Shown piece by piece: positions 1-60,591 of a DNA stretch of 64,000 nt (the first letter of the stretch is position 1; the number at the start of each line of letters is the position of its first letter). This DNA comes from a bacterium. Lineage in GTDB: Archaea > Nanobdellota > Nanobdellia > Pacearchaeales > GW2011-AR1. The notes beneath the pieces were generated by a model that ran no database searches, was not told where the DNA came from, and saw only the letters and a program-made list of their open reading frames with translations. Made by a program: the position numbers and the translations under genes. Where the stretch lies: positions 7,549 through 71,548 of the forward strand of contig DAITPU010000001.1 of the NCBI GenBank assembly GCA_036833455.1. Direction: 5' to 3'.

Positions 1-2900
1 TGCCGTCGTAGAATCATTCAAATCAAAAGGTAAATTCAAAACAGCCCAAGAGGTTCCATTCAACCTCCAATCTGTAATATTATAAATTAAATCTTCATCT
101 AAATCTGTTGAATTAGAAATATAAACACTCAAATTTTCAAAAGTAGTATTAGTTCCCGAAGAGGAATTTAAAATAACTATTGGAAAAGTTGGAGCGCTAT
201 TAACTTGTTCACCTAAGATAGTCAAATTAGAACTTAAAACTGAAGTTCCTTCCGAAGAAAAATTAGTTGGAGTTACCATTACTGACCAATTTTCTCCAAC
301 TGAAGTTTCTTGCGAAACAATTGTTTCGATTGATTTATTATTTAATCCAGCTTGATAAATAGCACTAATTTGTTCTGCTGAAAGTGCTTCATCAAATATC
401 ATTACTTCATCTATTGAACCATTAAAATAATTACCTGCTGCATTAAATGTAGCAAAAAGTAAATTATTGGTAGATTTCCCGACAGAAAAACTTTTACTTA
501 AAGAAAAAACATTACTTCCATCTAAATAACCTTCCCACTTACTTCCATTATAAGAATAAACTATATGGTGCCAATTTGTATCTGAAAGAGTTATTCCAGA
601 ACCAGTTCGAGGATTATCTCCTGTATAAACCCCAGAATAAAATTCAACTTGATTATTTACATACTCCCAAATTAAAGAATAAACATTATCTGTTCCAGCA
701 TCATTCCTTTTAGATAAAAGATATCTATTAGTTTGACTTAAATCGCTAGGTTTAATCCAAAGTGAAAAAGCAAAATTATTTGTTAAATTTAAAGTTCCAT
801 TATAAGGAACGGTAATATAATCCCCTCCATCAAAATTGTAACATCCTCCCACTTTACAATTTGAACTCCAAGTTGGTTTTGCAGTTGATGAAGCCAGAGT
901 TCCATTATTTCCATAAGTTGAATAATCTTTTGCCGTCGTAGAATCATTCAAATCAAAGGGCATATTCAAAACTGCCCAAGAGGTTCCATTTAATCTCCAA
1001 TCTGTAATAGTTGCATTCGTATCAGTTGAAGAAATATACGCCGTTAAATTTTCATTAGTAGTATTAGTTCCCGAAGAGGAATTTAGAATTACTGAATTTA
1101 TTATTGGATTTCTTACTAAATCCAAAATAGTCAAATTAGAACTTAAAACTGAAGTTCCTTCTAAACTTAAATCTGTGGGAGTGGATCTAACTGACCAATT
1201 TTCTCCAACTGAAGTTTCTTGCGAAACAATTGTTTCGATTGATTGATTATTTAATCCAGCTTGATAAATAGCACTAATTTGTTCTGCTGAAAGTGCTCTA
1301 TTGAAGATCATAAATTCATCAATTCTTCCTTTAAAATATTTTTCACCATTATTAGCTTGATCTGCCGCTCCTATTTGATGGCTTGTATAGGTTCCAGACC
1401 AATCAAGAGTAATATTTCCGATAGTATTATTTGCTACACGAGAACCATTAAAATAAATTTTCATTTCATTTCCATCATAAGTTACCACAAGATGATGCCA
1501 TTGATTAGTTGAAGGGAGAGAAGCCGGATTCCATGCACAAGAATATCTAGTAGTAGAACTATGTAAATCATAATATATCGTGTTTAAACTTCCCCAACTA
1601 CTTATTGCAATACCTCCATCATAATTGTTGTTAGTAAGATGTTGCCCCCCATAAAAACCAGGATAAGTGTTTTGAGACCAATTTGAAGAATTTATCCACA
1701 TCACAATTGAGTGAGGTCCTGTTTGTCTAGCTGAATCTGGAAGAGTTATTTTATCGTTACTTCCATCAAAACTATAACATCCTCCAACCTTACAATTTGA
1801 AACCCAGGTTGCTCCACTTACAGAACCATTATTACTCAATGTAGAATAATCTTTAGTTACACTAGAATTTTCTAAATCAAAGGGCATATTCATCGCTGCC
1901 CAAGAAGCACCGTTTACTCTCCAATCCGTAATCGTTGAATTTGAATTAGTTGAATTTATATATGCGGTTAAATTCTCATTAGTAGTATTAGTTCCCGAAG
2001 AGGAATTTAGAATTACTGAATTAACAGTAGGGATTCCTACAAAATTTTCATAAGGTAAAACATTTCCTGAATTGTAAAGAGTTTGAATTTCCGATAAACT
2101 TAACTCTCTATTCCAAATTGCCCATTCATCATAATCTATATTTATTACGGCCCCCCCTCCAAGCAAACCAAGATTTGCATTAACTGTAGTTGCACCGCTT
2201 GTAGTCCTATTATAAGCTGAAACTGCATTAACATAAAGTTTTACATGGCTTGAACTATTCATTGTAATAACCACATGATACCATGTGTCTGCAGAAAAAT
2301 TTACTGAAGATGAATATTGAACCCAAGTTCCACTTGGCCTATCAGTAACATAAAAAACATAATTAGCTCCATCCAATTTAGTTCCTACAAAAAAGTTTAG
2401 ATTAGCTGCATTATTTGCATATTGCCCCCAAAATGCTCCTGGATTAGAATTATTACTCCTAACCCAAAAACTATGTGTAAAAGCTGAAGTTCTACTCTGT
2501 AATGCCCCTAAAGCAAGTCCTTGGTCATTAGTATTTCTTCCTCTAATTCTTAAAGCATTATTTTCTTTTCCACTAATCCAACTATATGTAAAAATAGCAG
2601 TTCTATTATCTGAAGCATGACTATCATATGCAGTACTTCCACTTGATTCATCTAACTTCCAATAAGAAACTAATCCGTTAGTTAAATTATATGAAGGATC
2701 AACAGCCAAATCACTAACAACTCTACTCTCGTCGGCAAAACTAAAATTCAAAACAGCGTATCCTGCTATATTCATAAATGAACTAAACTCTCCTGTATCC
2801 AAACAAGAATAATTTTCAACAAAAAATTTCAAAGGCTTAACACTTTCATTTATTTCCGAATATTTTAAAATTTCTTCATTTTCAGTAATAATATACAAAT
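1..2900 (-). repeat. In-frame tandem DNA repeats of about 910-930 bp (at least 3 copies) inside the giant surface-protein gene
   Basis: Exact 27-mer tgccgtcgtagaatcattcaaatcaaa occurs at 1 and 931. The 44-mer ttctccaactgaagtttcttgcgaaacaattgtttcgattgatt occurs at 291 and 1201. tattagttcccgaagaggaattta occurs at about 150, 1062 and 1985. Each unit encodes one LamG-like module. Confidence 0.8.
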
Positions 2901-4644
2901 CATCAATTAAATTTTCCTCTCCACACTTCAAATTTAAAAATTCCATTTCATCTTCAGTTTCTAAATTATCCTTAGGAATTTCTTCAAAAAATGCATTAGG
3001 AGAATAAATTGTTAAATTTCCAACTCCAGTAGTATTAAAATAAACTTTCCAAAGATCTCCATCTTTCAAATATTCTAAAGGATTCAAAACAGTTATAGTA
3101 ATTTCAAAAGTTTGATTAGAAAGATGAGGTGCAATCCACTCAACATAATCATAAAGCCCGTTTCCATTTAAATCATAAAACTCGTAACTCTCAATATATT
3201 TCTCTTCTTCCACCCAATAAATCTTAAATTCTGTTCCTTCTCTAAATTCTAATTCTTTTGAAATTTCTGCAAAAACTAAAACATTTTCATAATGAATATT
3301 TTCCGGTCCAACAATTTTTACAATTTTTCCTTTAGAAGTTTCTTCTTCCAAAGAATAAGGAGCAGGAGTTTCATATTCAATAACAACTAATTCTTTAGTA
3401 TTGTCAAGAACTAACTCCAAAGAGTTCTCTCTTTCCAAAATTTCAAATTCTTCTCCGACAGAAAAACCCGTAAAAACAAAAATCTTAGAAAAGAAATTTT
3501 TAATTCCCTCAAAAAAACCCTCTCCAGATTCAGAAATAGAATATCCCGTTAAAAAACTTCTAGAAGTTTCACCTTTTTCTCTAAACATTTCTTGATTATA
3601 ATCTTCTAACTTGTCTTCTATCTTTTCTGCCTTCGTTCCAGTTTTAATTTCAATTTTTTCAGAGTTAATAGGAATTTCAACTTTAACTTTTGTAGAATTT
3701 ATTTCCTCTAAATTTATTTTTTTAACCCAACGAACAGGTTTTCCTAAAACAATATTTGAATTAAGAGTTTCAATACTTTCATTATTCAGACCAAAAATTT
3801 CTTCTTCCAAAAGAGTTTCATTTAATTCAGATTCATTTAAGTTTTCATCTAATTCAGTTTGATTTAAACTTTCATTAAGTTCGGTTTCATTTAGTTGAAA
3901 TTCTTCTAAAGTTTGATTTACTTCAGTTTGATTTAAATTTTCTTGAAAAGAACTTCCCCCAGAACTAAAATCAAAGTTATTTTCTGTTTCCTCTAAAGGT
4001 TTTTCAGGAATAAACTCTGAATCATTAATTGAAATATTTTCAAGAATCTCAATTTCTCCAGAATCATTTAAAATTTCATCTTCAAATCCACTCTCTTTCA
4101 TTTCTTGGTTATCTTCAGTAATATCTCCTTCTACTTTTTCTTGAGTACTCTCTCCTTCTACTCCTTGAAAAACTTCCTCAGAATCTTCCTCAGAAATTTG
4201 TTCTTCTAAGTCAAGATTAGGGTTTTCATCAGAAACTTCATCTGAAGTAATCTCTTCTTCTACATTCCCTTCTTCTGAATTAGAAAAAGATTCATCTGTT
4301 AAACTCTTACTTCCGGTAGATATCTCCCTTTCAGAAGAAACTCCTTCTGAATCTTCTACCATAAAACCAGTTAAAGAAGAATAACTTTTAGAAATAGAAT
4401 CAAAAATTTTTTCAAATCCCAATTTTTCTTTATCAAAAGAATTTTCTCCGTAAGAAATAAAAGAAAAAACTCCTAAAATCAGGATTACACTACATAAAAA
4501 AATTAAAAAGAAGGGAGTTTTTTTCTTGGGTTTATAATCTTTTAAATATTTAGAAACAATATTCCCCTCTGAATCTCTATAGCTTTCATAATAGTATGGT
4601 CCAAAAACTTTATCTCCTCTTTTAATATACCTTTTATACACCAT
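1..4644 (-). CDS. Giant secreted or surface protein, 3'-partial (more than 1540 aa in window). It has an N-terminal TM anchor, an acidic NETELNE-type low-complexity linker and at least 3 tandem LamG/concanavalin-like jelly-roll modules.
   Basis: Manual reverse-complement translation from ATG at 4644 (MVYKRYIKRGDKVFGPYYYESYRDSEGNIVSKYLKDYKPKKKTPFFLIFLCSVILILGVFSF...) reads without stops to the window start. Repeated modules contain W..HHLVVTYDGNEMKIYFNG...IDEFMIFNRALSAEQISAIYQAG, typical of the Laminin_G_3 / concanavalin-like fold. It is not in the ORF track because it runs off the edge. Confidence 0.75.
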   Translation of the reverse strand, partial: MVYKRYIKRGDKVFGPYYYESYRDSEGNIVSKYLKDYKPKKKTPFFLIFLCSVILILGVFSFISYGENSFDKEKLGFEKIFDSISKSYSSLTGFMVEDSEGVSSEREISTGSKSLTDESFSNSEEGNVEEEITSDEVSDENPNLDLEEQISEEDSEEVFQGVEGESTQEKVEGDITEDNQEMKESGFEDEILNDSGEIEILENISINDSEFIPEKPLEETENNFDFSSGGSSFQENLNQTEVNQTLEEFQLNETELNESLNQTELDENLNESELNETLLEEEIFGLNNESIETLNSNIVLGKPVRWVKKINLEEINSTKVKVEIPINSEKIEIKTGTKAEKIEDKLEDYNQEMFREKGETSRSFLTGYSISESGEGFFEGIKNFFSKIFVFTGFSVGEEFEILERENSLELVLDNTKELVVIEYETPAPYSLEEETSKGKIVKIVGPENIHYENVLVFAEISKELEFREGTEFKIYWVEEEKYIESYEFYDLNGNGLYDYVEWIAPHLSNQTFEITITVLNPLEYLKDGDLWKVYFNTTGVGNLTIYSPNAFFEEIPKDNLETEDEMEFLNLKCGEENLIDDLYIITENEEILKYSEINESVKPLKFFVENYSCLDTGEFSSFMNIAGYAVLNFSFADESRVVSDLAVDPSYNLTNGLVSYWKLDESSGSTAYDSHASDNRTAIFTYSWISGKENNALRIRGRNTNDQGLALGALQSRTSAFTHSFWVRSNNSNPGAFWGQYANNAANLNFFVGTKLDGANYVFYVTDRPSGTWVQYSSSVNFSADTWYHVVITMNSSSHVKLYVNAVSAYNRTTSGATTVNANLGLLGGGAVINIDYDEWAIWNRELSLSEIQTLYNSGNVLPYENFVGIPTVNSVILNSSSGTNTTNENLTAYINSTNSNSTITDWRVNGASWAAMNMPFDLENSSVTKDYSTLSNNGSVSGATWVSNCKVGGCYSFDGSNDKITLPDSARQTGPHSIVMWINSSNWSQNTYPGFYGGQHLTNNNYDGGIAISSWGSLNTIYYDLHSSTTRYSCAWNPASLPSTNQWHHLVVTYDGNEMKIYFNGSRVANNTIGNITLDWSGTYTSHQIGAADQANNGEKYFKGRIDEFMIFNRALSAEQISAIYQAGLNNQSIETIVSQETSVGENWSVRSTPTDLSLEGTSVLSSNLTILDLVRNPIINSVILNSSSGTNTTNENLTAYISSTDTNATITDWRLNGTSWAVLNMPFDLNDSTTAKDYSTYGNNGTLASSTAKPTWSSNCKVGGCYNFDGGDYITVPYNGTLNLTNNFAFSLWIKPSDLSQTNRYLLSKRNDAGTDNVYSLIWEYVNNQVEFYSGVYTGDNPRTGSGITLSDTNWHHIVYSYNGSKWEGYLDGSNVFSLSKSFSVGKSTNNLLFATFNAAGNYFNGSIDEVMIFDEALSAEQISAIYQAGLNNKSIETIVSQETSVGENWSVMVTPTNFSSEGTSVLSSNLTILGEQVNSAPTFPIVILNSSSGTNTTFENLSVYISNSTDLDEDLIYNITDWRLNGTSWAVLNLPFDLNDSTTA

Positions 4645-4719
4645 CTTTTTTCAAATAAATTAAGAAAAATGTATATTTAAACCTTATTCTTGTAGTGTAA
4701 TTACTTTATTGAAGATAAA

Positions 4720-7388: not shown

Positions 7389-10300
7389 TTAACTTATTTT
7401 GATTTTTCCTCCGGAAGCTATATATAAAATTGAATCGATAGGGGGATATCCCATATTTTTTGTGTAAATAGTTGAATTGATCGTACAATTTCCTATTCCA
7501 GAAAAAAATAATTTATTCAAACCTAAATTCGTATTTAATGAAATTATACAAAAGTCCCCCATAGAAATATTCCAATCTCCAGAACCAGAATAAATACAAC
7601 TATCAAAGGAAAGTATTCTTTTTGTAGAACTATTAACCCAAGAAGAATTATAAGTTCCGTCGGAAGCTAAACAACTAAGAATCCAATCTTGACCTGCAGA
7701 AGTATTTTCACTAGATATATTTGCAACATTAACTTCAAAACTTTCAGAATATTCTCCAATATTTCCACTTAGATTTTCAATTCCATCCACATACCATTTA
7801 TAATGGTAGGTTAAATTCTGTTTTTCTATATCTGTCGCGTTACAATACCCTCTAAGAGTATCATTATAGTAAGAAAAAAGAGGTAAAATTAAAGAAGAAA
7901 CGATAAACGGATTTGGAGAATTTATCAAAACAGAATTTGATTGAACTCTATAATTATTATCAAAATCTTCATTAGTGGGAGTAACTCCGGCAATCCAAGT
8001 TTCACCTGGGGAAGTGTGAACATTCTCCAATATATCTAAATCTTTTGCTCCCATCCCGTACCAATATAATCTTTCAATTTCTGAAGGAGTTAAAGTCAAA
8101 TTATAAATTACAAATTCATCTAATTGACCAATAAAATACCCCCATCCTCCTGCATCTCCTCCTAAAGTCAAACTTGAAGAAGGGATTGTTCCCACCCAAC
8201 CAGATTCAACTGCCGAATTTTCTTGAACTCCATCTACATAAAGAGTAAAATTATTTTCTGGTTTATCATAAGTTAAGAGAGCATGATGCCAGTTTGTTAT
8301 TGAAGATCCATTACCATTAACTTGACTTGTATTTACTAAACTTGTTCCTAATAAACTAAATCTATCTGAAATTATAAATCTTATTTTTCCAGAACTAATT
8401 TCAAAATGAAATCCATCATATCCTCCATCATCACAAACTCCTTCCTCACACATTGCAAGAATTGTTCCAGAATCAGAATAGGTATTTATCCAAAAAGATA
8501 AACTAAAACTCTGGGCATACAAATCGAAATCATTCATAGTTGTATTTATGTAATCATTTCCATCAAAACTATAAGCTCCTCCAACCTTTCCTTCCTTAAC
8601 CCAAGTCGCTCCGTGTATACTTCCGTCGTATCCATTAAATCCATAATCCTTAACTGAAGAAGAATCATTCTTGTTAAAAGCGTATTTTATTATCTCAACA
8701 CCTCTTCCAGAGTTATCCCAATCACTAACATAAGAAACAGCATTTTCAGGATAACACTGACCAACTGAAGAACTTGTGTTTCCCGTATAAAAATTTGAAA
8801 TTTTAAGTGCATCAGTAGCAGAAATATTTCCACTATTATCCCAATCTCCGCAACATAAATGAACATTTTCATCATAACAAGATATTATTTCAACAAAAAT
8901 AGCTTGTGCTAAAAAAGAATCTTCACTATCTATCTTTCCATCTCCATTCAAATCTCCTTTCAACTGACCAGGACGACAAACAACTTCACAACTTGAACTA
9001 TCAGCATCTTCCAAATAATCAAAATGTAAAGTTAAATTATCCGTAGTAAAGTTGTAAGAGCTCGTAGTGTTTAAATAAGGAACTAAAGGGAAATAAATTC
9101 CTTTAACAGAACTATTCAACCAAGAAGAATTATCTTCTCCATCATATGCTAAACAACTTAAAATCCAGTTTTCACCTGAAGTTGTTAAAGAGCTAGAGAT
9201 ATTTGCAACATTTATCTCGGCTCCAGAAGCATGACCTCCCGCCGTAACTCCTGAACTATTTAAAACATTATTCTTATACCAAGAATAGTAATAAGTTAGC
9301 GTATCTCCATCGGCATCGGTTGCATTACAATATCCTTTAAGAGTATCAGAAGAATATCTTATCGAAGGTAAAATATTTGATTCAATAATAATTGGAGGTA
9401 CATTGCTTATAGTTAAAACAGAACTATTAACCCAAGAAGAATTTTCTAAAAAATCAGAAGCGAGGCAACTTAAAGTCCAATTCTCTTCTTTTGATGTGAT
9501 TGAACTTGAAACATTTGCAACATTTATTTCAGCTCCCGAAGAATAATTTCCTTCTTTTTTACCAGAAAGATTCAAACTTCCATTTTTATACCAAAGATAA
9601 TAATAGGTTAAATTATTATCCTCTAAATCACTTGCATTACAATATCCTTTAAGAGTATCATTCGTATAAGCTACGGAAGGAAATATTGTAGAATTTTCCA
9701 TCTCTGGAGCATTATTATAAATAAAAGGGTATGTGAGAGGATCCCCTTCATTCCAGATAAGTTCAAACTCTTCAAAATCCATAGAATAATTATCATAAAT
9801 TCCAAAATAATCTATCTTTGAACCATTTAACGAATAATCTTGTTCTGAAATTTCTTGATCTGGATTATTTATTCTTAACCCTATATGGTTTTTATAATTA
9901 GAATAATTTAAGGAATTATTCCCATTGTATTCCTGAGTTTCATTTAAAACATTTTCTTCATTAGCAATAAAAATTTTTCCAACCCCATAATCATCTCCAT
10001 AAGCTTCTCTAGAAAATCCAATTAGATTCCAAGTTCCCAATTGAACAGAATTTGTAGAAGTATAAATTCCGCTTTCCGGACCATCTGGATAAACTGCAGA
10101 TGAATTACCGCTGACTAACCTACCAGAAATAGTTCTATCTGTATTAATCCATAATCCAAAACCTACATTTAAAGAATCTTCTCCCTCTGAATTAAAACCA
10201 TCATCCAAAATCCAAATTTCTTTATCTAAAGATTCTGGAACATAAACCAAAGCTAAGTAACTAAAATGGGTTCCGGACATGACCCAAAAATTTTCTTGAC

Positions 10301-10622
10301 TTCCAAAATCCACATAATTTTCTCCATCAAATTGAATTGCCCCATTTACTAATCCTTCACTCCAAAGACTATCTTTTGTTAATTCTCCATTAAAATCTTC
10401 TTTTATTAAAGCATTAACTTCAATTCCTGAACTTTCATTAAATTCATAAAAAGCAACCAATTTGCTACTAGAATTCAAATAAAGAGCAGGATATGCCGGT
10501 AAATTTCTTTCCTCTCCAAAAATTCCAAAAAAACTTCCTCCATAAGAAGGATTAATTATAAAAAAAAATATTCCCAAGACAGAAATTATTCCTAAAACAA
10601 AAAGTAAAATTTTTTTTTTCAT
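7389..10622 (-). CDS. 1077-aa secreted surface protein with an N-terminal LamG-like domain, three PKD-like repeats, a canonical dockerin, a second LamG-like domain and a fourth PKD-like repeat
   Basis: It has a signal peptide. The dockerin has two Ca-binding loops, DLNGDGKIDSED and DWDNSGNISATD, each followed by a helix. The LamG-like motif is WHHALLTYDKPENNFTLYVDG...LDEFVIYNLTLTPSEIERLY. A roughly 80-aa unit YSSDTLKGYCNATD...NWILSCLA.D is repeated three times, with a fourth copy near the C-terminus. NxS/T sequons are very frequent. Confidence 0.7.
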   Translation of the reverse strand: MKKKILLFVLGIISVLGIFFFIINPSYGGSFFGIFGEERNLPAYPALYLNSSSKLVAFYEFNESSGIEVNALIKEDFNGELTKDSLWSEGLVNGAIQFDGENYVDFGSQENFWVMSGTHFSYLALVYVPESLDKEIWILDDGFNSEGEDSLNVGFGLWINTDRTISGRLVSGNSSAVYPDGPESGIYTSTNSVQLGTWNLIGFSREAYGDDYGVGKIFIANEENVLNETQEYNGNNSLNYSNYKNHIGLRINNPDQEISEQDYSLNGSKIDYFGIYDNYSMDFEEFELIWNEGDPLTYPFIYNNAPEMENSTIFPSVAYTNDTLKGYCNASDLEDNNLTYYYLWYKNGSLNLSGKKEGNYSSGAEINVANVSSSITSKEENWTLSCLASDFLENSSWVNSSVLTISNVPPIIIESNILPSIRYSSDTLKGYCNATDADGDTLTYYYSWYKNNVLNSSGVTAGGHASGAEINVANISSSLTTSGENWILSCLAYDGEDNSSWLNSSVKGIYFPLVPYLNTTSSYNFTTDNLTLHFDYLEDADSSSCEVVCRPGQLKGDLNGDGKIDSEDSFLAQAIFVEIISCYDENVHLCCGDWDNSGNISATDALKISNFYTGNTSSSVGQCYPENAVSYVSDWDNSGRGVEIIKYAFNKNDSSSVKDYGFNGYDGSIHGATWVKEGKVGGAYSFDGNDYINTTMNDFDLYAQSFSLSFWINTYSDSGTILAMCEEGVCDDGGYDGFHFEISSGKIRFIISDRFSLLGTSLVNTSQVNGNGSSITNWHHALLTYDKPENNFTLYVDGVQENSAVESGWVGTIPSSSLTLGGDAGGWGYFIGQLDEFVIYNLTLTPSEIERLYWYGMGAKDLDILENVHTSPGETWIAGVTPTNEDFDNNYRVQSNSVLINSPNPFIVSSLILPLFSYYNDTLRGYCNATDIEKQNLTYHYKWYVDGIENLSGNIGEYSESFEVNVANISSENTSAGQDWILSCLASDGTYNSSWVNSSTKRILSFDSCIYSGSGDWNISMGDFCIISLNTNLGLNKLFFSGIGNCTINSTIYTKNMGYPPIDSILYIASGGKIKIS

Positions 10623-13250
10623 TTAAGCGCTACAAATTGAACCTCCACTGGAAAAGATTATACAATTATCCACCGTTACATTTCCTGAAAGAGTAGATGT
10701 TGAAGTTACTTCAAAAGTTCCATTAACATGAAGGGTTTTAGAAGGTTTGTTGTGATTTATTCCCACTCTTGCATTATCAAACTGACCATAAATCAAAGGA
10801 ATTGAATTCACATTTGCTTGATGAAGAATAAATACATTTGAAGCGGTATTCCCATAGCCTGCTTGATAACCCAAAGCAATTACATTATTTCCTGAATTAG
10901 AATAAAGAGCTTCATCCCCTATAGAAATTGTTTTACTTCCCAAATTATAAGCTCCAGAATAATAACCAAAAGCAACTTGATTATCCCCTTCATTAGAAAG
11001 CCCGGCCCCATATCCAAAAGCGGATTGGTAATCTCCTAAGTTATACCTTCCTGAAGAAATTCCAAATGCACTTTGCCATGATGCTTTATTAGAAGACCCA
11101 GAATAATAACCAAACGCTGTTTGTTCAAAAGAACTTTCATTTCCTGCTGCTGCTCCCCCGAACGTATTCGTATATGAATTAGAAGTTCTCAAAATAGGAA
11201 TTCCTCCTTGCATATAAGAATATCCGTCTGGAATATTCACACTTCCTGCAATAACATCTAATTTATGTGAAGGTGCTCCTCCAATACCTATATTCCCTGA
11301 TGCTCCTTGATAAATTTCAGAATTGTTTAGAGAAGAAGTTCCATTCCATAAAGGAATTCTCATTGAAGTTCCTGCTCCAGAAAGATAAGTAGGAATCGTA
11401 CTTGAATTATAAAATCCGTAAGGATTTACTAAAGGATAGTAATTAGCTAAAGAAGAATTGAAAGCTAAAGTTCCATTGTAAGCTAATGGATCTGATTCAG
11501 AAGTTAAAAAACTTGAAGTATCAATAGACCAATTAGCTATCAATCCTGTTGAATTCCAATCTTTAATTAAACCTGATGAATTATATTGATGATAAGTTGA
11601 ATTATAAGTAGAACTCCAAGATGAATTATACAAACTAAAATTTCCGCTCCAGAATGGATCTGTTTCTGTATAACTTTGTAAATATCTGTCATCACTTTGT
11701 GTTTTGTTATAAAAAGTGTCATTAATCCAAGCATCTTCATAATTTCCAACGGGCAAAGTTGTAGAATTATAATATCCGAATGGGTTGCTTGTTAAATATA
11801 AGCTTCCATTGTAAGCTAATGAATCTGTTTCAGAAGTTAAAACTCCACTTAAACAATTTCCTCCTTCAATACAAATATCTCCCGTAGAATTTATTGATCC
11901 AGACACTCCTAAATTATTTCCAACATAAGCATTTCTACCTAAATATAAATCTCTCCACCTTAAACTAGAATTTCCTAAATCAAACTGATTATGATAACCT
12001 ATTTCTGGAACAAGGGATCCATTAATCTGAAGATTATTTACTGAAATAGAATTTAATGTATAAAAATAACCCGTTTGAGCATATATAGCTCCTCCAATAA
12101 TGCTTAATCCATTTGAAGTCCACCCCCCATTAAAATCAAATTGTCCGAAAACCGAATTATTCAAAGGCATAAAAAAACTAGAATCATAACCATCCAATTT
12201 ATCTGTATCTAAAAAACTATCACTCCAATTAATTATCAACCCTGTTGAGTTCCAATCTTTAATTAAACCTGATGAATTATATTGATGATAAGTTAAATTA
12301 TAAGTAGAACTCCAACTCTCATTATAAGCTGTAAAATTAGAAGCCCATAGTGGGTCTATTTCTGTATAACTTTGTAGGTATCTATCATCACTTTGTGTTT
12401 TATTATAAAAAGTATCATTAATCCAAGCATCGTCGTAACTTCCGACGGGCAAAGTCGTAGAATTATAATATCCATAAGGATTATTTATTGAATAATATAA
12501 ACTATCTGCATAAGTTTTGTTCCATGAAAACAAAGATAAATAATTTGAATAATTAGAAGTCCATAATGGATCTGTTTCTGAAGTTAAAACTCCACTTAAA
12601 CAATTTCCTCCTTCAATACAAATATCTCCTGTTGCATTAATAGTTCCATTTGATAAAATATCTCCTGCCACATGCAATAATCTCTGAGGAGAATTAGTTC
12701 CAATTCCCACATTTCCTGAAGTAAAAAAAAGATTTCCTCCATTCAGCTCCCAATAATTAATTTGACTTAAATTAATTGCAGAAGTATTAATGTCTGTCAA
12801 ATACCTTCCGCTTCCCAAAAAATAAAAAGCACTCAAATTATAAGTTCCAAAATTCAAAGAAGAATCAATTTCTATTCCAGAACTGTTAACATATTTAGAA
12901 CGAAAAGAGTAAGGCGTCCTAGAAATTTTAGTTGAATTTATTAAAGATCCATTACGATAATAACACAAATAATATTGTTGATCATAATTTAAATTAGTAT
13001 TTTGAAGATAGTAAGAAATAATCCCTCTGGAATCGGTAGTTAAAGTTTCAGAATCAGAATAGATAACATTCAAACAATTCGAATCTGTAGTAATATTAAA
13101 AACAAAGTTATATGTTCCAGCTAAAATATTGCCTTCTGAATCAGTTGTCTGAATATTCAAATGAAGTTCATCTAAAATTTCTGCTGAAGAAGTAAAACTA
13201 ATAAGAAAAAAAATCAAAAATAAACCCAGGAAATACCTCTTTGTTACCAT
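10623..13250 (-). CDS. 875-aa secreted, heavily N-glycosylated surface protein with an internal duplication of about 240 aa and C-terminal YadA-head-like repeats
   Basis: It has a signal peptide. The GDICIEGGNCLSGVLTSETD...WINDTFYNKTQSDDRYLQSYTE block occurs twice. SAFGY.AG..N.G.NQVAFGYYSG...VIALGYQAG repeats resemble the left-handed beta-roll head of trimeric adhesins and phage fibres. More than 60 NxS/T sequons are present. Confidence 0.6.
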   Translation of the reverse strand: MVTKRYFLGLFLIFFLISFTSSAEILDELHLNIQTTDSEGNILAGTYNFVFNITTDSNCLNVIYSDSETLTTDSRGIISYYLQNTNLNYDQQYYLCYYRNGSLINSTKISRTPYSFRSKYVNSSGIEIDSSLNFGTYNLSAFYFLGSGRYLTDINTSAINLSQINYWELNGGNLFFTSGNVGIGTNSPQRLLHVAGDILSNGTINATGDICIEGGNCLSGVLTSETDPLWTSNYSNYLSLFSWNKTYADSLYYSINNPYGYYNSTTLPVGSYDDAWINDTFYNKTQSDDRYLQSYTEIDPLWASNFTAYNESWSSTYNLTYHQYNSSGLIKDWNSTGLIINWSDSFLDTDKLDGYDSSFFMPLNNSVFGQFDFNGGWTSNGLSIIGGAIYAQTGYFYTLNSISVNNLQINGSLVPEIGYHNQFDLGNSSLRWRDLYLGRNAYVGNNLGVSGSINSTGDICIEGGNCLSGVLTSETDSLAYNGSLYLTSNPFGYYNSTTLPVGNYEDAWINDTFYNKTQSDDRYLQSYTETDPFWSGNFSLYNSSWSSTYNSTYHQYNSSGLIKDWNSTGLIANWSIDTSSFLTSESDPLAYNGTLAFNSSLANYYPLVNPYGFYNSSTIPTYLSGAGTSMRIPLWNGTSSLNNSEIYQGASGNIGIGGAPSHKLDVIAGSVNIPDGYSYMQGGIPILRTSNSYTNTFGGAAAGNESSFEQTAFGYYSGSSNKASWQSAFGISSGRYNLGDYQSAFGYGAGLSNEGDNQVAFGYYSGAYNLGSKTISIGDEALYSNSGNNVIALGYQAGYGNTASNVFILHQANVNSIPLIYGQFDNARVGINHNKPSKTLHVNGTFEVTSTSTLSGNVTVDNCIIFSSGGSICSA

Positions 13251-13773: not shown

Positions 13774-13894
13774 TGATCCTGCTGAGATTTGAACTCAGGA
13801 CCTCTGGCTCTCTTAGAAAGCTCCAAGAGATAGCAACCCTAACGAATTACTTTCTTATAAGACCAGCGCTCTAACCAGGCTGAGCTACAGGATC
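13774..13894 (-). tRNA. tRNA-Ile (anticodon UAU) with a 47-48 nt intron 3' of the anticodon; CCA not encoded
   Basis: Manual cloverleaf on the minus strand reads GATCCTG-TA-GCTC-AGCCTGGTTA-GAGC-G-CTGGT-CTTATAA-[intron GAAAG..AAGAG]-GCCAG-AGGTC-CTGAG-TTCAAAT-CTCAG-CAGGATC-A. All stems pair. Confidence 0.7.
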
Positions 13895-33967: not shown

Positions 33968-34113
33968 TCCATCCACCCAGATTCGAACTGGGAACCTCTC
34001 GGGCACTGCTATGCCTTTTAGTTCTTGACTTTTAGGGTTTCATCGTATATCTTACTAGACACTCCGCCTTAGGATATCTACAGCCAAGCGCTCTGCCATT
34101 GAGCTATGGATGG
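33968..34113 (-). tRNA. tRNA-Tyr (anticodon GUA) with the archaeal/eukaryal C1-G72 pair and an intron of about 74 nt
   Basis: Cloverleaf reads CCATCCA-TA-GCTC-AATGGCA-GAGC-G-CTTGG-CTGTAGA-[intron]-CCGAG-AGGTT-CCCAG-TTCGAAT-CTGGG-TGGATGG-A. Confidence 0.7.
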
Positions 34114-56658: not shown

Positions 56659-59600
56659 TTAAATGGAAGAACACAGTTGACCTGCATAACCTGTGTTTGG
56701 ATAACCTACAAAATATCTCATTACTAAAAGAGAATCTGCAGAATTTATTGTTCCATCTCTATTAACATCCAAACAACAAATATTATTTGGAGTTGGAATA
56801 AGTTGAACAAAAACTTTGCTTATTAAAAGTGCATCTGCAGAATTTATTGCTCCATCTGCATTAGCATCTCCTATTAAAGATGAAGAAAAGCATTGTACTT
56901 CTGGGGAAAGTAAAGGATTATTTTTTTCATATTTTCCTGTATGTTGTAAATCATGCATAAACATTGGCCAATCTATCCTTGATTCATTATATAAAACACT
57001 TAAATTCCAAGCATAAATTTTAGTTTTGGGGTAGGAAGCTCCAAGAACTAAATCTAAAAAATCATCTTTATCTAAATCACTAACAATTAATCTATCTGAA
57101 GTTCCAAAAAAATAACCCGAAATTGGAGATTGAATAAAAGAACCAAATCTATCATATATTCCTAAACTAGGTCCAGAAACTATGATTTCTCTATAGTGGT
57201 CTCCATTTATATCTGCTATGATTGGGGAAGAATAACTAAAATCTCCTGTTTGAATTAAAGATTTATTAAAAATTAAATTCCCTTCATAATCAAAAGAATA
57301 AAGTATAAAATAAGGCTGTTGAATCTGTGAAACTAATGTTATTACTTCTAATTTTCCATCTCCACCTAAATCTCCTACTGAAGGACCTGAAGTAATTCCT
57401 CTGATATTTTCTTCAAAAGTATATGGCCACCCTGAAAAAATTGTTCCATTATAATTCCAAACATACAATTTAGAAAAATTTGGATCTGAAAAAATTCTCA
57501 AATCCCCCATAATAATCTCTAATTTTCCATCTCCATCTAAATCTCCTATTGCGGGAGAATTTAAAAAAGCATTTTCCGAATATTGAGGCCATCCATTAGC
57601 AATAGTCCCATTATGATGCCAAACATAAATAATACCATTATAATTTTCAAAAGAAGATGAATAATAGGGGAACCCCATTACAATTTCTGAATTTCCATCT
57701 CCATCTAAATCTCCTATTGCAGGATAGGAAATCTTATCCCACTGCATCATGAAATTTGGTTCTCCTATTTCTTGCGGCCATCCCGAAAGAGAATTACCAT
57801 AAATATCAAAAATATACACTACCTTATCGGTAGTTATAACAAAATCTCTTTTTCCATCATTATTAATATCAGCTAAGGATAAAGAAGAACTAAATTCTTC
57901 AGAATAAATACCAGAAAAATCCCAATAGTTAACAAGAGTTCCGTTATAACTAATAGCATAAATATAAATTCTGCCTAGTCCACTTATCAAAACTAAAACT
58001 TCTTCAATATTATCCCCGTTAATATCTTCTGAAGTCAATAATAAAGGACCATTACCCAAACTAGTATTTATCAAAAATGGCCAACCAGAAAGTGTTTCTC
58101 CTTCATAATTCAACAAATTTATTTGTTGATTTAATGAAGATCCGAAATAAGAATTAAAAAGTATTTCTTTATATCCATCTCTATTTAAATCTACAACAAC
58201 TGGCCAAATTTCACTTCTAATATTTGAATTTCCTTGAAATTCGACTTTTCTAGGCCATCCCTCTTTTAAGGTTAAATCTAAATAAATAGGAAAAGATATA
58301 GAAAAAGAATCAAAAAAACTACTAAAACTGAAAATCAAAAGATAATATCCTTGGTTGAAACCAGAAGTATTCCAAACTGCAAAAGAATCATTCAAAATAT
58401 TTATACCTTGATAAGAATGAGGGGTTGATCCAAAATAAGAAATATTCGAAAGATTATAATACGGATTTAAAATATTCCACTTAAGATTAATTTGATCTCC
58501 AATTCTATAAATTTCTGAAAAATCTGGATTAAGAATTTCTACGTTCTTTATTTTGAAAAATCCAAAATCTTTACTTTGAATAGAATTATTTCCATAAACA
58601 GATAATTTAAGATTATAAATTCCTTCTTTTAAAACATTGGGATCAAAATTAGAGCATAAAACACCTTCATCAACAACATTATTTCCAGAACATATTAAAT
58701 TCCAAGTATTGCTATCAGAAGAATAAAAAACAGAATAAGAATAAAAATCATCTCCTTTTGCACTACCCAAAATATTCATTTGGCCTGATGGAAGATAATC
58801 TATTTCATTTAAAGAAGCTATCAAAGGTTTACTAAAATTTAAAGAAGAACGAACATTTATTCTTCCTTGGCCTTGATCTTTAATTCCAGCTCCATTTAAA
58901 TTCTGTGCAGAATTTTTTAAAACCATTTTAATTTCTTCTGGAGACCAATCTGGATGAGCTTGCTTGATTAAAGCTACTGCTCCTGCAACATGGGGAGTAG
59001 CCATACTTGTTCCGGGAATTGAAGTGTGTTGATTATCAATACATTCTCTATCGCTCCAAGCATCATTCCATTGAGCTGCACAAATTCCTTGAGAACTAAA
59101 AAATCCATCTCCAGGAGCAACAACATCTGGTTTAGATAAGGACTTTATTTTTCCTTGAGCATCTTCCCAAAGAACCGGCCCTCTAGAAGAAAAGGACGCC
59201 ATTAAATCATTCTTATCCGAAGCACCTACACTAATTGCTTTTCTGGAAGTAGCAGGAGAACCTATAGGTCCATTCCAAAGTCCATCATTTCCTACAGCAA
59301 TTACTGCAATTACTCCTGCACTTACAACGTTATCTATAGCTTGACTAACAGGATCATCTGGATTTCCTTGACCTCCCAAACTCAAACTTATAATATCCAC
59401 ATAATCATTTTCATCTTCCAAGGGTATTCCATTGTTATTCAAATCTACTGATCTTTCAATAGCAGAAATAACATCGGAAAAATCTCCCCCTCCTGCCGAA
59501 CTTAAAACTTTAAAACCATATAATTTTGCATCTGGAGCAACACCTTTTAAAATTCCCTTTCCTGCGGCAATAGAAGCACAATGAGTTCCATGCCCATTAT

Positions 59601-60591
59601 CATCCATTGGATCAAAATCATTATTAACAAAATCATAACCTCCTAAAACTTTTTCACACTTGCCTTTTAAAAAACTAGAAGAAGTACATGATCCTAAATC
59701 AGGATGAGTATAATCAATCCCCGTATCAATAATTGCAATTTTTATTCCTTCTCCAGTTAAATTTAAAGAAGAATTATTTGGATCTGAAATTTGCCAAACC
59801 AAATCTGCTTCAACCAAAGAAACAGAATCCATTAAAAAGGCTTTTACTCTATAATTTGGAGTGACTCTTTTAATTCCAGGCATACTTTCAATTTTTTCTT
59901 TTTCTTCTTTTGTTAATTTACCAACACTAACTCCACTAAAAGAAAAATAAAATTCTTCAGAAATAATTTCTCTACTTATAGATTCCTCTTCTAATTTTGC
60001 CTTAAAATTTTCACTTGTTTGTTGTAAAATTTCTCTTTGTTTTTCAAGTTTTACACTTGCCTCTTCTTCCAAGATTTCAGAATCTTTAGAAAAAGTTTTT
60101 AAAATAAATTTAGAAACTCCTTTAGTTTGAGCTTCAGTTTCCTTTTTATAACTTACCTCTTCTTCAAGATCTGATTTTAAAACCAATAAAGGTTTCTCTT
60201 CAAATTCAACAATATATCCTTCGTATTCCCCAATATTTTCTCCCTTATTTATAGGAAAATTCTCATTTTCTCTATCAGATAAAAGAAAATCATTTTGCCC
60301 CAAAAACATATTATCCCTACTTCTATACTGAAAAGAATTAAAATCATTTTCAAAAATATTTGTTTCTTGTTCCTCAAAAAAATTATTATTTGTTAACTTA
60401 TCTTCAACTGAAATTTTTTCTTCATTTTGTTTTTCAAGAGTTTTTGCATTTTTTGCTAAACATTCAAAAAAACTTCCCTTACAATCTTCATCAACTGCTC
60501 TTCCAGTAAAAGAAACCCCAGATAAAAAAATCCCTCCAAAAAAAATTAAAATTAAGAAAAAAGAAGAATAAAGATAAATTTGTCTTTTCAT
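56659..60591 (-). CDS. 1310-aa secreted subtilisin-like (S8) serine protease with a pro-region, FG-GAP/beta-propeller repeats and a C-terminal dockerin
   Basis: Catalytic triad contexts DTGIDYTHPDL, HGTHCASIAAG and GTSMATPHVAGA. Seven or more D.[DN].DG...[ED] FG-GAP loops (DLNRDGYKEILF, ADINNDGKRDFVI, IGDLDGDGNSEIVMG and others). Dockerin: GDANADGAINSADALLISK ... LDVNRDGTINSADSLLVMR. Confidence 0.85.
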   Translation of the reverse strand: MKRQIYLYSSFFLILIFFGGIFLSGVSFTGRAVDEDCKGSFFECLAKNAKTLEKQNEEKISVEDKLTNNNFFEEQETNIFENDFNSFQYRSRDNMFLGQNDFLLSDRENENFPINKGENIGEYEGYIVEFEEKPLLVLKSDLEEEVSYKKETEAQTKGVSKFILKTFSKDSEILEEEASVKLEKQREILQQTSENFKAKLEEESISREIISEEFYFSFSGVSVGKLTKEEKEKIESMPGIKRVTPNYRVKAFLMDSVSLVEADLVWQISDPNNSSLNLTGEGIKIAIIDTGIDYTHPDLGSCTSSSFLKGKCEKVLGGYDFVNNDFDPMDDNGHGTHCASIAAGKGILKGVAPDAKLYGFKVLSSAGGGDFSDVISAIERSVDLNNNGIPLEDENDYVDIISLSLGGQGNPDDPVSQAIDNVVSAGVIAVIAVGNDGLWNGPIGSPATSRKAISVGASDKNDLMASFSSRGPVLWEDAQGKIKSLSKPDVVAPGDGFFSSQGICAAQWNDAWSDRECIDNQHTSIPGTSMATPHVAGAVALIKQAHPDWSPEEIKMVLKNSAQNLNGAGIKDQGQGRINVRSSLNFSKPLIASLNEIDYLPSGQMNILGSAKGDDFYSYSVFYSSDSNTWNLICSGNNVVDEGVLCSNFDPNVLKEGIYNLKLSVYGNNSIQSKDFGFFKIKNVEILNPDFSEIYRIGDQINLKWNILNPYYNLSNISYFGSTPHSYQGINILNDSFAVWNTSGFNQGYYLLIFSFSSFFDSFSISFPIYLDLTLKEGWPRKVEFQGNSNIRSEIWPVVVDLNRDGYKEILFNSYFGSSLNQQINLLNYEGETLSGWPFLINTSLGNGPLLLTSEDINGDNIEEVLVLISGLGRIYIYAISYNGTLVNYWDFSGIYSEEFSSSLSLADINNDGKRDFVITTDKVVYIFDIYGNSLSGWPQEIGEPNFMMQWDKISYPAIGDLDGDGNSEIVMGFPYYSSSFENYNGIIYVWHHNGTIANGWPQYSENAFLNSPAIGDLDGDGKLEIIMGDLRIFSDPNFSKLYVWNYNGTIFSGWPYTFEENIRGITSGPSVGDLGGDGKLEVITLVSQIQQPYFILYSFDYEGNLIFNKSLIQTGDFSYSSPIIADINGDHYREIIVSGPSLGIYDRFGSFIQSPISGYFFGTSDRLIVSDLDKDDFLDLVLGASYPKTKIYAWNLSVLYNESRIDWPMFMHDLQHTGKYEKNNPLLSPEVQCFSSSLIGDANADGAINSADALLISKVFVQLIPTPNNICCLDVNRDGTINSADSLLVMRYFVGYPNTGYAGQLCSSI

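What the first reader, a model, noticed from the sequence alone, without database searches (positions are those of the whole stretch)
10623..11300. YadA/Hia-head-like SAFGY..AG repeats in an archaeal surface glycoprotein
The C-terminal third of the 875-aa protein carries repeated motifs of about 14 residues (SAFGYYSGSSN, SAFGISSG, SAFGYGAGLSNEGDNQVAFGYYSGAYNLG, VIALGYQAGYGNTASNV). These are characteristic of the left-handed beta-roll head of trimeric autotransporter adhesins and of phage tail fibres. That is unexpected in archaea and suggests a trimeric fibre-like adhesin.
Basis: inference. Interest (0 to 1): 0.55.

Follow-up and report, generated by a model that had tools for sequence, protein, structure and literature searches.

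The report
YadA-like beta-roll head on archaeal fibre
The repeats are real: they form a 16-residue variant of the left-handed beta-roll "head" known from bacterial trimeric adhesins and phage tail fibres, sitting near the tip of a secreted, mosaic fibre protein of a tiny symbiotic (DPANN) archaeon that probably uses it to stick to other cells.

Summary
The 875-aa ORF (window 10623-13250, minus strand) carries seven tandem repeats at aa 695-806 (window 10833-11168). Their period is 16 residues, not 14 (z = 9.8; 0 of 2000 shuffles).

- Family profiles match only one solved adhesin head, EibD (E 1e-4).
- They align to Pfam-positive YadA_head 14-mers in a paralogue (hhalign 88-90%).
- A confident AF2 monomer model has one strand per 16 residues.
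- Its best PDB matches are YadA-like heads and left-handed beta-helices, though none is significant.
- It has 37 significant matches among predicted viral fibre proteins; the top one is named 'LbR_YadA-like'.

The protein is not a trimeric autotransporter. It has no membrane anchor, no stalk and no Pfam YadA_head hit, and its host is an archaeon.

It belongs to a DPANN family. More than 100 retrieved members share a conserved N-terminal domain but carry different distal modules. It also has the capping loops of S74-type and Bdellovibrio fibres.

The head module itself is very common (about 102,000 cluster representatives in bacteria, DPANN and viruses). The trimer and the adhesin role are inferred, not shown. 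Modest novelty.

The parts
10623..13250 (-). Whole gene: an 875-aa secreted fibre protein (stop codon at 10623-10625).
   Evidence: ORF listing. A 100%-identical product, P0001, lies on metagenome contig ERZ724098 NODE_914.
13182..13250 (-). Probable Sec signal peptide or signal anchor, aa 1-23 (MVTKRYFLGLFLIFFLISFTSSA).
   Evidence: Read directly from the sequence: basic n-region, hydrophobic core, SSA before E24. No predictor was available, so this is inference.
12867..13181 (-). Family-defining N-terminal domain, aa 24-128. It is the presumed cell-proximal attachment domain.
   Evidence: BLASTP finds it at 60-80% identity, always at the N-terminus, in 105 retrieved homologues. It has no Pfam hit in the query. 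P0020 gives a weak DUF7035 hit.
12669..12716 (-). Capping-loop motif 1, GNVGIGTNSPQRLLHV (aa 179-194).
   Evidence: Found by motif scan. The same motif class matches the Bdellovibrio fibres Bd2133 and Bd3182 and MYRF in profile searches. It is described as a beta-helix capping loop in PMC10769870.
11529..12494 (-). Shaft region containing an intragenic module duplication: 11529-11798 versus 12225-12494 (84% nt identity) and 11817-11901 versus 12564-12648 (91%). It includes two GDICIEGGNCLSG motifs (aa 208-220 and 457-469).
   Evidence: the repeat finder and motif positions.
11940..11978 (-). LGNSSLRWRDLYL motif inside a module of about 90 aa (aa ~360-450) that is conserved in paralogues.
   Evidence: Seen in P0004, P0011 and P0038. 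There is a weak Pfam hit to the lactococcal phage RBP neck at aa 398-413 (E 0.015, below cut-off). tblastn against phages found no match.
11253..11297 (-). Capping-loop motif 2, GNIGIGGAPSHKLDV (aa 652-666), immediately upstream of the head.
   Evidence: Motif scan. Conserved in alignment A1.
10833..11168 (-). Seven 16-residue repeats (aa 695-806): the YadA-like left-handed beta-roll head.
   Evidence: Periodicity. AF2 gives one strand per 16 residues with pLDDT 92-97. Fold matches. Profile matches.
10779..10832 (-). Conserved end cap of the head, FILHQANVNSIPLIYGQF (aa 807-824). The family consensus is NQFIVKQANVNAVPLIQGDF.
   Evidence: Regex hit in 22 retrieved proteins. Bacterial versions read SNKLYIxNSNTxxPLIxGDF.
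10725..10769 (-). Capping-loop motif 3 (degenerate), RVGINHNKPSKTLHV (aa 828-842).
   Evidence: Foldseek aligns this part of the model to Bd2133, Bd3182, Bd2439 and Bd1334 fibres (probability 0.8-0.97, 33-57 columns, rmsd 1.8-2.7 A). Profile hits to the same fibres.
10626..10724 (-). C-terminal tip, aa 843-875, with a Cys pair (DNCIIFSSGGSICSA). It is the presumed distal end of the fibre.
   Evidence: Similar Cys-pair termini occur in P0003, P0050 and P0121. AF2 confidence here is low (pLDDT 48-58).
7389..10622 (-). Abutting downstream gene: a 1077-aa Laminin_G_3 plus dockerin-like surface protein, probably co-transcribed.
   Evidence: Its start codon directly follows the fibre gene's stop. 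Pfam hits. Paralogue P0004 is likewise followed by a 1239-aa DUF2341/Beta_helix protein.

Best explanation
The gene encodes a secreted, heavily N-glycosylated fibre protein of a DPANN archaeon (Pacearchaeota/Woesearchaeota-like).

[quoted passage not shown] Each unit corresponds to the 14-residue YadA unit (G-x-N-S-V-A-I-G...) plus two extra residues in the outer turn.

The roll is closed by a conserved end cap (QANVN..PLI.G.F). It is flanked by the 'capping loops' typical of trimeric beta-helical S74-type fibres, and it ends in a small Cys-bonded tip.

By analogy with TAAs, phage tail fibres and Bdellovibrio MAT fibres, three chains assemble in parallel. The conserved N-terminal domain holds the fibre on the cell envelope, the repetitive shaft projects it outward, and the head and tip bind a surface ligand on a partner or host cell.

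Shown here: the repeat, its period, its family, its similarity to YadA-type heads in sequence and in the predicted fold, and the modular architecture. Inferred: trimerisation, orientation on the cell, and the adhesin function.
For: - Period 16: z 9.8, 0 of 2000 shuffles.
- The register matches the published LPBR consensus GxNSVAIGAxSxAx with its invariant G@8. That paper places insertions between position 14 and position 1 (PMC9543794). In the family units the anchor G is invariant by construction, and the preceding positions are T, A and I/L/F.
- Profiles A1 and A3 hit the EibD head as the only solved adhesin head (E 1.3e-4 and 4.4e-4). That segment is Pfam YadA_head.
- hhalign to the Pfam-positive 14-mer heads of P0004 gives 88% and 90.5% probability. 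In P0004 these heads sit before the same QAN... plus capping-loop ending.
- P0020 has the 16-mer head and cap followed at once by a YadA_stalk neck (E 4e-17).
- AF2 model 2: pLDDT 80 overall, pTM 0.76, 92-97 in the repeats, one strand per 16 residues.
- Foldseek against the PDB: top hits are the BoaA YadA-like head (TM up to 0.50), then CbpF, AtaA Ylhead and UspA1, plus many left-handed beta-helix enzymes.
- BFVD: 37 hits at E <= 1e-3. They include an 'LbR_YadA-like' phage protein (5.5e-7) and S74 fibre proteins at rmsd 1.3-1.8 A over 120 columns.
- tblastn: Tenacibaculum phage fibre-like proteins, E 4e-8.
- Capping loops match Bdellovibrio MAT fibres and MYRF.
- Trimer inference: family members sharing the N-terminal domain at 60-80% identity carry obligate-trimer modules, namely YadA_stalk and Peptidase_S74.
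- Cellular, surface context: signal peptide, sequon excess (42 versus 20.6 +/- 3.8), housekeeping neighbours and other large LamG/dockerin surface proteins.
Against: - The query has no hit to Pfam YadA_head, NCBIfam or PHROGs. Only 3 of 13 family heads give weak YadA_head hits (best E 0.011).
- No PDB fold match is significant (best E 0.1). The first, shallower model matched nothing.
- hhalign to the single EibD segment is weak (E 0.013, probability 3%).
- The models are monomers. A trimer was never modelled, and handedness is inferred only from which structures matched.
- The query itself carries no stalk, neck or S74 domain.
- No experimental data exist for any family member.
Confidence: 0.68

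Rival explanations
1. The repeat region is not three separate beta-rolls. Instead it forms an intertwined triple beta-helix, as in T4 gp5/gp12 and the S74-type fibre shafts, in which each face is built from different chains.
For: The head is flanked by capping loops that belong to intertwined trimeric beta-helices in Bd3182 and Bd2133. Relatives commonly end in Peptidase_S74. A period of 16 equals two 8-residue half-units.
Against: AF2 builds a confident, self-contained single-chain solenoid (pLDDT 92-97). Lag 8 is anti-correlated (z = -3.8), so there is no 8-residue sub-repeat. The best structural matches for the repeat part are single-chain YadA-like rolls.
Confidence: 0.12
2. It is a monomeric beta-solenoid surface protein, for example an S-layer-associated or carbohydrate-binding solenoid. 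The similarity to adhesin heads would then be convergent, arising from Gly/Ala/Asn-rich solenoid repeats.
For: The monomer model is confident without partner chains. PDB matches are not significant and include unrelated left-handed beta-helix enzymes. There is no Pfam membership.
Against: Profile-profile links reach bona fide YadA_head repeats that sit at the equivalent position in a paralogue. Family members with the same N-terminal domain carry trimer-only modules, namely the TAA neck/stalk and the S74 chaperone. The capping loops come from trimeric fibres.
Confidence: 0.12
3. The gene is a tail-fibre gene of an integrated or co-assembled virus, not a cellular adhesin.
For: There are strong predicted-structure and sequence matches to phage and giant-virus fibre proteins. 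A tRNA-Ser gene lies about 520 bp upstream.
Against: The protein has an N-terminal signal peptide. Neighbours are a thermosome, an Obg-like GTPase, a radical-SAM protein and large LamG/dockerin surface proteins; farther along the window lie CDC48, PolB and AlaRS. No PHROG hit below E 0.01 was found for the gene or its neighbours. The conserved N-terminal domain recurs in many DPANN genomes, in differing cellular contexts.
Confidence: 0.05
4. It is a chance pattern or compositional low complexity in a Ser/Asn/Gly-rich protein.
For: The protein is 14% Ser, 11% Asn and 10% Gly.
Against: Composition-preserving shuffles never reach the observed lag-16 score. The same repeat and the same end cap are conserved across hundreds of species.
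Confidence: 0.01

Closest known systems
YadA-like head (left-handed parallel beta-roll; Pfam PF05658 YadA_head, CDD 'LbR_YadA-like') of trimeric autotransporter adhesins such as YadA, EibD, BoaA and UspA1
   Same: - Tandem short repeats with an invariant Gly preceded by small or hydrophobic residues (T-A-I-G).
- A predicted one-coil-per-repeat left-handed solenoid.
- The EibD head is the only solved adhesin head hit by the family profile.
- BoaA, CbpF, AtaA and UspA1 heads top the PDB fold list.
- In paralogues the head is followed by a TAA neck/stalk.
   Different: - The period is 16 rather than 14 (15 in UspA1).
- The query has no Pfam hit.
- It has a specific end cap (QANVN..PLI.G.F) that the solved adhesin heads hit or aligned here do not show.
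- It has no YadA_anchor barrel, no stalk and no outer membrane, and the host is an archaeon.
- The presumed anchoring end is N-terminal, not C-terminal.
Phage and giant-virus tail-fibre or fibril proteins with LbR_YadA-like / 'Chlorovirus glycoprotein repeat' rolls, often ending in the Peptidase_S74 intramolecular chaperone
   Same: - These give the best significant structural matches: 37 BFVD hits at E <= 1e-3, with rmsd 1.3-1.8 A over 120 columns to S74 proteins.
- There is direct sequence similarity to Tenacibaculum phages pT24/PTm1 and Roseobacter phage CRP-7.
- Bacterial relatives with the same 16-mer and end cap end in S74.
   Different: - The query has no S74 domain and ends in a small Cys-pair tip.
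- It has a signal peptide and lies in a cellular genome context.
- Its N-terminal domain is a DPANN family domain, not a baseplate adaptor.
Bdellovibrio bacteriovorus MAT (mosaic adhesive trimer) fibres: Bd2133, Bd3182, Bd2439, Bd1334 (Caulton et al. 2024, PMC10769870)
   Same: - The same design: a signal peptide, then a conserved N-terminal domain of about 100-130 aa, then a long fibre with swappable C-terminal tips, with and without S74.
- Shared capping-loop motif, matched in sequence and in the model.
- The organism lives by contact with other cells.
   Different: - The structures described for the MAT fibre tips are beta-helices. A YadA-type roll is not reported for them.
- Homology of the N-terminal domains was not tested.
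- The host here is archaeal.
- No experimental localisation or phenotype exists.

Membership tests
Trimeric autotransporter adhesin (type Vc secretion) | C-terminal YadA_anchor 12-stranded beta-barrel (PF03895) | tested here: not met
   Pfam shows no such hit. The protein ends 33 aa after the last capping loop. None of the Pfam-scanned relatives has it either.
Trimeric autotransporter adhesin (type Vc secretion) | Coiled-coil stalk and neck (PF05662) | tested here: not met
   Absent from the query. Present in the paralogous family members P0020, P0035, P0011 and P0013.
Trimeric autotransporter adhesin (type Vc secretion) | Diderm bacterial host with an outer membrane | tested here: not met
   The host is archaeal: intron-bearing tRNAs, a thermosome, CDC48 and PolB. 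Homologues are named Pacearchaeota, Nanoarchaeota or 'archaeon' by their sources, and related genome loci also come from Woesearchaeota.
YadA-like head / LPBR fold (PF05658; CDD LbR_YadA-like) | Match to the curated sequence model YadA_head | tested here: not met
   The query has no hit at E <= 1, nor its C-terminal segment at E <= 10. 3 of 13 family heads give weak hits (best E 0.011). The CDD model could not be searched.
YadA-like head / LPBR fold (PF05658; CDD LbR_YadA-like) | Tandem 14-16-residue layers with an invariant Gly (G@8) and an inward-facing small or hydrophobic triplet before it | tested here: met
   Seven layers of 16 aa. In the family position table the anchor G is fixed by construction and is preceded by T/A/I; spacing is 16 in 20 of 22 steps. 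The published consensus is in PMC9543794.
YadA-like head / LPBR fold (PF05658; CDD LbR_YadA-like) | Remote homology to bona fide heads | tested here: met
   hmmsearch to EibD: E 1.3e-4 and 4.4e-4. hhalign to the P0004 YadA_head segments: 88% and 90.5% probability. The single-sequence EibD hhalign is weak.
YadA-like head / LPBR fold (PF05658; CDD LbR_YadA-like) | Left-handed two-stranded beta-roll in three dimensions | tested here: inconclusive
   The confident model has one coil per repeat. Top PDB hits are YadA-like heads and left-handed beta-helices, but all at E >= 0.1. BFVD hits to 'LbR_YadA-like' models are significant.
YadA-like head / LPBR fold (PF05658; CDD LbR_YadA-like) | Homotrimer with three rolls around a threefold axis | not testable with these tools
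   Only monomer AF2 is offered.
S74-type / MAT-like trimeric beta-helical fibres | Capping-loop motif (V-G-...-P-x-x-x-L) | tested here: met
   Three copies, at aa 179-194, 652-666 and 828-842. Profile hits to Bd2133, Bd3182 and MYRF. Foldseek probability 0.8-0.97. The motif is defined in PMC10769870.
S74-type / MAT-like trimeric beta-helical fibres | C-terminal Peptidase_S74 intramolecular chaperone (S74 subgroup) | tested here: not met
   No PF13884 hit in the query, so it would be an 'NS74'-type member. S74 is present in family members and bacterial relatives.
S74-type / MAT-like trimeric beta-helical fibres | Conserved N-terminal domain after the signal peptide, homologous to the MAT N-terminal domain | not tested
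   An analogous conserved N-terminal domain exists. No MAT N-terminal sequence was available for comparison.

The most novel reading that the evidence does not exclude
DPANN archaea may carry a large, fast-diversifying family of phage-tail-fibre-like mosaic trimeric adhesins.

Each member would have one conserved N-terminal cell-attachment domain and an interchangeable distal module. The modules seen here are the 16-mer or 14-mer YadA-type head, the TAA neck/stalk, the S74 chaperone, the collar, FGE-sulfatase and dockerin.

The modules would be exchanged horizontally with CPR/Patescibacteria, Bacteroidota and viruses. The fibres would determine which host cells these episymbionts attach to, as an archaeal counterpart of the Bdellovibrio MAT fibres.
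Probability: 0.35. Interest if true: 0.65.

Novelty: new member of a known kind. Interest (0 to 1): 0.38.

Why it matters
How DPANN archaea recognise and hold on to their hosts is largely unknown, and very few candidate attachment proteins have been named.

This gene belongs to a family that is easy to recognise. It has a conserved N-terminal domain and mosaic fibre modules shared with bacterial adhesins, predatory-bacterium fibres and phage tail fibres. That gives concrete candidates for host-attachment and host-range determinants, which could be tested in co-cultures or by heterologous expression.

It also shows that adhesin-type head, neck and stalk modules work without an outer-membrane anchor. 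And it documents a very abundant 16-residue variant of the YadA-type roll that the Pfam copy searched here does not detect.

The fold itself and its presence in fibres are already known, so the advance is one of distribution and context, not of principle.

Tried and rejected
- Direct library searches of the query found nothing relevant: Pfam, PHROGs and NCBIfam, and phmmer against PDB sequences, which gave only noise hits to Cas9 fragments.
- The first AF2 model, from a 13-sequence alignment that included the flanks, was poor (pLDDT 60). Foldseek on it returned only noise. It was replaced by a trimmed 29-sequence alignment.
No oligomer model exists.
- hhalign of the family profile against the single EibD head segment was weak. 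The link to YadA heads therefore rests on hmmsearch plus the archaeal 14-mer bridge.
- An exact-match search for the window in GTDB genomes found nothing, so the source genome is not a species representative.
- tblastn of the mid-protein 'RWRDLY' module against phage genomes found nothing.
- There is no paralogue of the fibre elsewhere in the 64-kb window.
- Literature searches for YadA/Hep_Hag-type heads or tail-fibre-like proteins in DPANN archaea found no description. The 'YadA'+'DPANN' hits look unrelated by their titles and were not opened.
- A provirus origin was considered and rejected on gene context.
Full report
**The object**

The finding lies in an 875-aa ORF on the minus strand, window 10623-13250. 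The coordinates given (10623-11300) cover the stop codon and aa 651-875.

The window comes from a cellular archaeal chromosome with about 29% G+C:
- Two tRNA matches, at 13774-13894 and 33968-34113, are far longer than a tRNA and so must carry introns.
- The window encodes a thermosome, an Obg-like GTPase, CDC48, family-B DNA polymerase and AlaRS.
- An identical protein sits on metagenome contig ERZ724098 NODE_914.
- Where homologues carry a source name, it is mostly Candidatus Pacearchaeota, Nanoarchaeota or 'archaeon', that is, DPANN. Woesearchaeota appear among the related genome loci.

**Checking the observation**

The quoted strings are present, except that the first reads TAFGYYSGSSN rather than SAFGYYSGSSN. 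Written in register, aa 695-806 form seven units of exactly 16 residues: NTFGGAAAGNESSFEQ / TAFGYYSGSSNKASWQ / SAFGISSGRYNLGDYQ / SAFGYGAGLSNEGDNQ / VAFGYYSGAYNLGSKT / ISIGDEALYSNSGNNV / IALGYQAGYGNTASNV. The consensus is xAFGYxAGxxNxGxxQ.

- BLOSUM62 autocorrelation peaks at lag 16 (z 9.8) and lag 32 (z 8.7). None of 2000 composition-preserving shuffles reached either.
- Lags 8, 24 and 40 are anti-correlated, so there is no 8-residue sub-period.
- The units average 48% identity at the DNA level, so they are old and constrained.

The period is therefore 16, not about 14, and the repeats cover about 13% of the protein.

**Relatives**

A search with the whole protein returned 272 proteins. Of the 120 listed proteins, 20 other proteins, plus one from the second search, contain the same C-terminal module, often internally. 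It consists of 4-12 units of Q-T-A-[IVF]-G-Y-x-A-G-x-x-N-T-G-x-x, then an almost invariant end cap N-Q-F-I-V-K-Q-A-N-V-N-A-V-P-L-I-Q-G-D-F, then G-N-V-G-I-G-T-T-x-P-x-x-K-L-x-V.

- Bacterial relatives carry the same design, NTAxGYxALxxNTTGxx ... SNKLYIxNSNTxxPLIxGDF ... GSVGIGTTxPxxKLxV. They frequently end in the Peptidase_S74 chaperone or a T9SS sorting signal.
- A profile search of 1.84 billion cluster representatives found 102,033 proteins at E <= 1e-3 and 16,896 at E <= 1e-30. Some have up to 51 matched stretches.
- In GTDB species genomes, 310 loci were confirmed. The best 80 come from Pacearchaeota, Woesearchaeota and other archaeal MAGs, from Patescibacteria/Saccharibacteria, and from many Bacteroidota, Proteobacteria, Zixibacteria and others.

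The module is thus very common. It recurs in DPANN archaea and is not an isolated oddity.

**Is it a YadA-type head? Sequence evidence**

- The query hits no Pfam, NCBIfam or PHROG model. Only 3 of 13 family heads give weak YadA_head hits.
- Family profiles searched against all PDB sequences return only a handful of sequences at E <= 10. The EibD head is the only adhesin head among them (E 1.3e-4 and 4.4e-4, partly gapless across EibD's own 16-residue layers). The other consistent hits are Bdellovibrio fibres and MYRF, which match the GNVGIGT...P...L motif.
- The matched EibD segment is Pfam YadA_head at E 4.7e-13.
- A paralogue, P0004, shares the N-terminal domain and shaft modules. It carries canonical 14-residue repeats that Pfam calls YadA_head at E 2.6e-31. 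They sit at the equivalent position, just before '...SQANTMSIMGGTVGINTTAPKNTLNV'.
- hhalign aligns the 16-mer family to these 14-mers, with two-residue gaps per layer, at 88% probability (E 3e-6). A deeper profile against both P0004 heads gives 90.5% (E 1.3e-6).
- The register agrees with the published LPBR consensus GxNSVAIGAxSxAx: G at -7, a small or hydrophobic triplet at -3 to -1, and the invariant G. The two extra residues fall where that paper places insertions, between position 14 and position 1 (PMC9543794; my alignment).
- In family member P0020 the 16-mer head and its cap are followed directly by GKISGLANGTLSNDAVNYQQLQAV. Pfam calls this YadA_stalk at E 4e-17. That is the canonical head-neck-stalk order.
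- hhalign against the single EibD segment alone is weak.

**Is it a YadA-type head? Structure evidence**

- A trimmed 29-sequence alignment gave mean pLDDT 80, pTM 0.76 and 92-97 across the repeats. It has one short strand every 16 residues, which means a single-chain solenoid with one coil per repeat.
- Foldseek against the PDB ranks the BoaA YadA-like head first (E 0.1-0.18, probability 0.75-0.93, TM up to 0.50, about 150 columns). CbpF, AtaA Ylhead, UspA1 and many left-handed beta-helix enzymes follow, and no right-handed helices appear among the 50 matches listed.
- In the same search, the post-head capping loop aligns to Bd2133, Bd3182, Bd2439 and Bd1334 at rmsd 1.8-2.7 A. No PDB hit reaches E <= 1e-3.
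- Against predicted viral structures there are 37 hits at E <= 1e-3. They are led by an 'LbR_YadA-like domain containing protein' of an uncultured phage (5.5e-7, TM 0.66) and a 'YadA-like head domain-containing protein' of Yasminevirus. S74 fibre proteins superpose at 1.3-1.8 A over 120 columns.
- tblastn also finds Tenacibaculum phages pT24/PTm1/PTm5 (E 4e-8, annotated as chlorovirus glycoprotein repeat) and a Roseobacter phage tail structural protein.

**Architecture of the whole protein**

1. aa 1-23: signal peptide (read from the sequence).
2. aa 24-128: a domain conserved at 60-80% identity, always N-terminal, in 105 retrieved homologues.
3. aa 179-194: capping loop 1.
4. The shaft: two copies of a GDICIEGGNCLSG motif and a W/Y/N-rich module, duplicated within the gene (270 nt at 84% identity and 85 nt at 91%). 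It also contains a module with LGNSSLRWRDLYL, shared with paralogues.
5. aa 652-666: capping loop 2.
6. aa 695-806: the head.
7. aa 807-824: the end cap.
8. aa 828-842: capping loop 3.
9. aa 843-875: a 33-aa Cys-pair tip.

N-x-S/T sequons are twice as frequent as expected (42 versus 20.6 +/- 3.8), which fits an N-glycosylated archaeal surface protein.

Other family members replace the distal part with a YadA_stalk, Peptidase_S74, Collar, FGE-sulfatase, dockerin or chlorovirus-repeat module.

The capping-loop motif was defined on the crystal structures of Bdellovibrio MAT fibres and noted in MYRF (PMC10769870). Those fibres share the same overall plan: a signal peptide, a conserved N-terminal domain of about 130 aa, a fibre, and variable tips with or without S74.

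**How it most likely works**

*Shown:* a secreted modular protein with a YadA-type 16-residue roll, S74-type capping loops and a family-specific N-terminal domain, encoded in a cellular DPANN genome next to other large surface proteins.

*Inferred:*
- Three chains assemble in parallel. The argument is that paralogues with the same N-terminal domain contain modules that exist only as trimers (TAA stalk, S74 chaperone), and that the capping loops belong to trimeric helices.
- The N-terminal domain or an uncleaved signal anchor fixes the fibre to the envelope.
- The head (7 layers, roughly 3.4 nm if the usual 4.8 A rise applies) and the tip are distal and bind a ligand on another cell. This fits the contact-dependent lifestyle generally assumed for Pacearchaeota and Woesearchaeota.

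**Rivals**

The rivals are an intertwined triple beta-helix rather than three separate rolls, a monomeric solenoid, a viral gene, and chance. The evidence for each is set out under Rival explanations. The last two are poorly supported.

**Comparison and novelty**

The protein works like a TAA head or phage-fibre roll, but it fails TAA membership: no anchor, no stalk, no outer membrane. It also fails the Pfam YadA_head model. It fits best as an 'NS74'-type member of the broad class of S74/MAT-like mosaic fibres that carry an LbR_YadA-like roll.

I found no paper describing such modules in DPANN archaea. However, the fold, its use in fibres and its wide distribution are all known or evident. I therefore rate it as a new member of a known kind, of modest interest. 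The broader family hypothesis has a higher ceiling.

Noticed in passing
window 13774-13894 and 33968-34113 (minus strand): Two tRNA matches are much longer than a normal tRNA (121 and 146 nt), so they carry introns. ARAGORN calls the first as tRNA-Ser (93 nt) and misses the second entirely.
   Followed up: partly
window 1-4650 (minus strand): An open reading frame of at least 1550 aa runs off the window start. It has an acidic Glu/Asn-rich N-terminal region and several LamG-like 'LDGS...IDEFMIFNRALSAEQI' repeats, and is probably a giant surface protein.
   Followed up: no
window 7389-10622 (minus strand); locus L082 14493-18212: The fibre gene's stop codon abuts the start of a 1077-aa Laminin_G_3 plus dockerin-like protein that has four Cys-containing 'LKGYCNATD...WxLSCLA' repeats. 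The paralogue P0004 is likewise followed directly by a 1239-aa DUF2341/Beta_helix protein. This may be a conserved gene pair, but a third locus (L083) does not clearly show it.
   Followed up: partly
window 56659-60591 (minus strand): A 1310-aa subtilase with FG-GAP repeats and a C-terminal type I dockerin. Dockerin-like domains therefore recur in several surface proteins of this genome and in P0004, which hints at a cohesin-dockerin style of surface assembly.
   Followed up: no
window 11529-11798 vs 12225-12494, and 11817-11901 vs 12564-12648: There is an intragenic duplication of a shaft module inside the fibre gene (84% and 91% nucleotide identity). It is much more recent than the head repeats.
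   Followed up: partly
window 12867-13181 (aa 24-128 of the fibre): This N-terminal domain is conserved at 60-80% identity in 105 retrieved DPANN proteins whose distal parts differ widely. The only library signal is a weak DUF7035 hit in P0020. It defines an undescribed archaeal protein family.
   Followed up: partly
proteins P0129, P0140, P0160 (bacterial relatives): The precomputed annotation lists Pfam PF26696 for these proteins, but the scan of the local Pfam copy returned no family for them at E <= 0.01. That newer family may already describe the 16-residue repeat.
   Followed up: no
loci L002, L004, L005, L013, L015 (genome contigs): The bacterial loci closest to the archaeal head module come from Melioribacteraceae, Balneolia and CPR/Patescibacteria (43-49% identity). 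That is as close as many archaeal loci, which suggests cross-domain exchange of the module.
   Followed up: no
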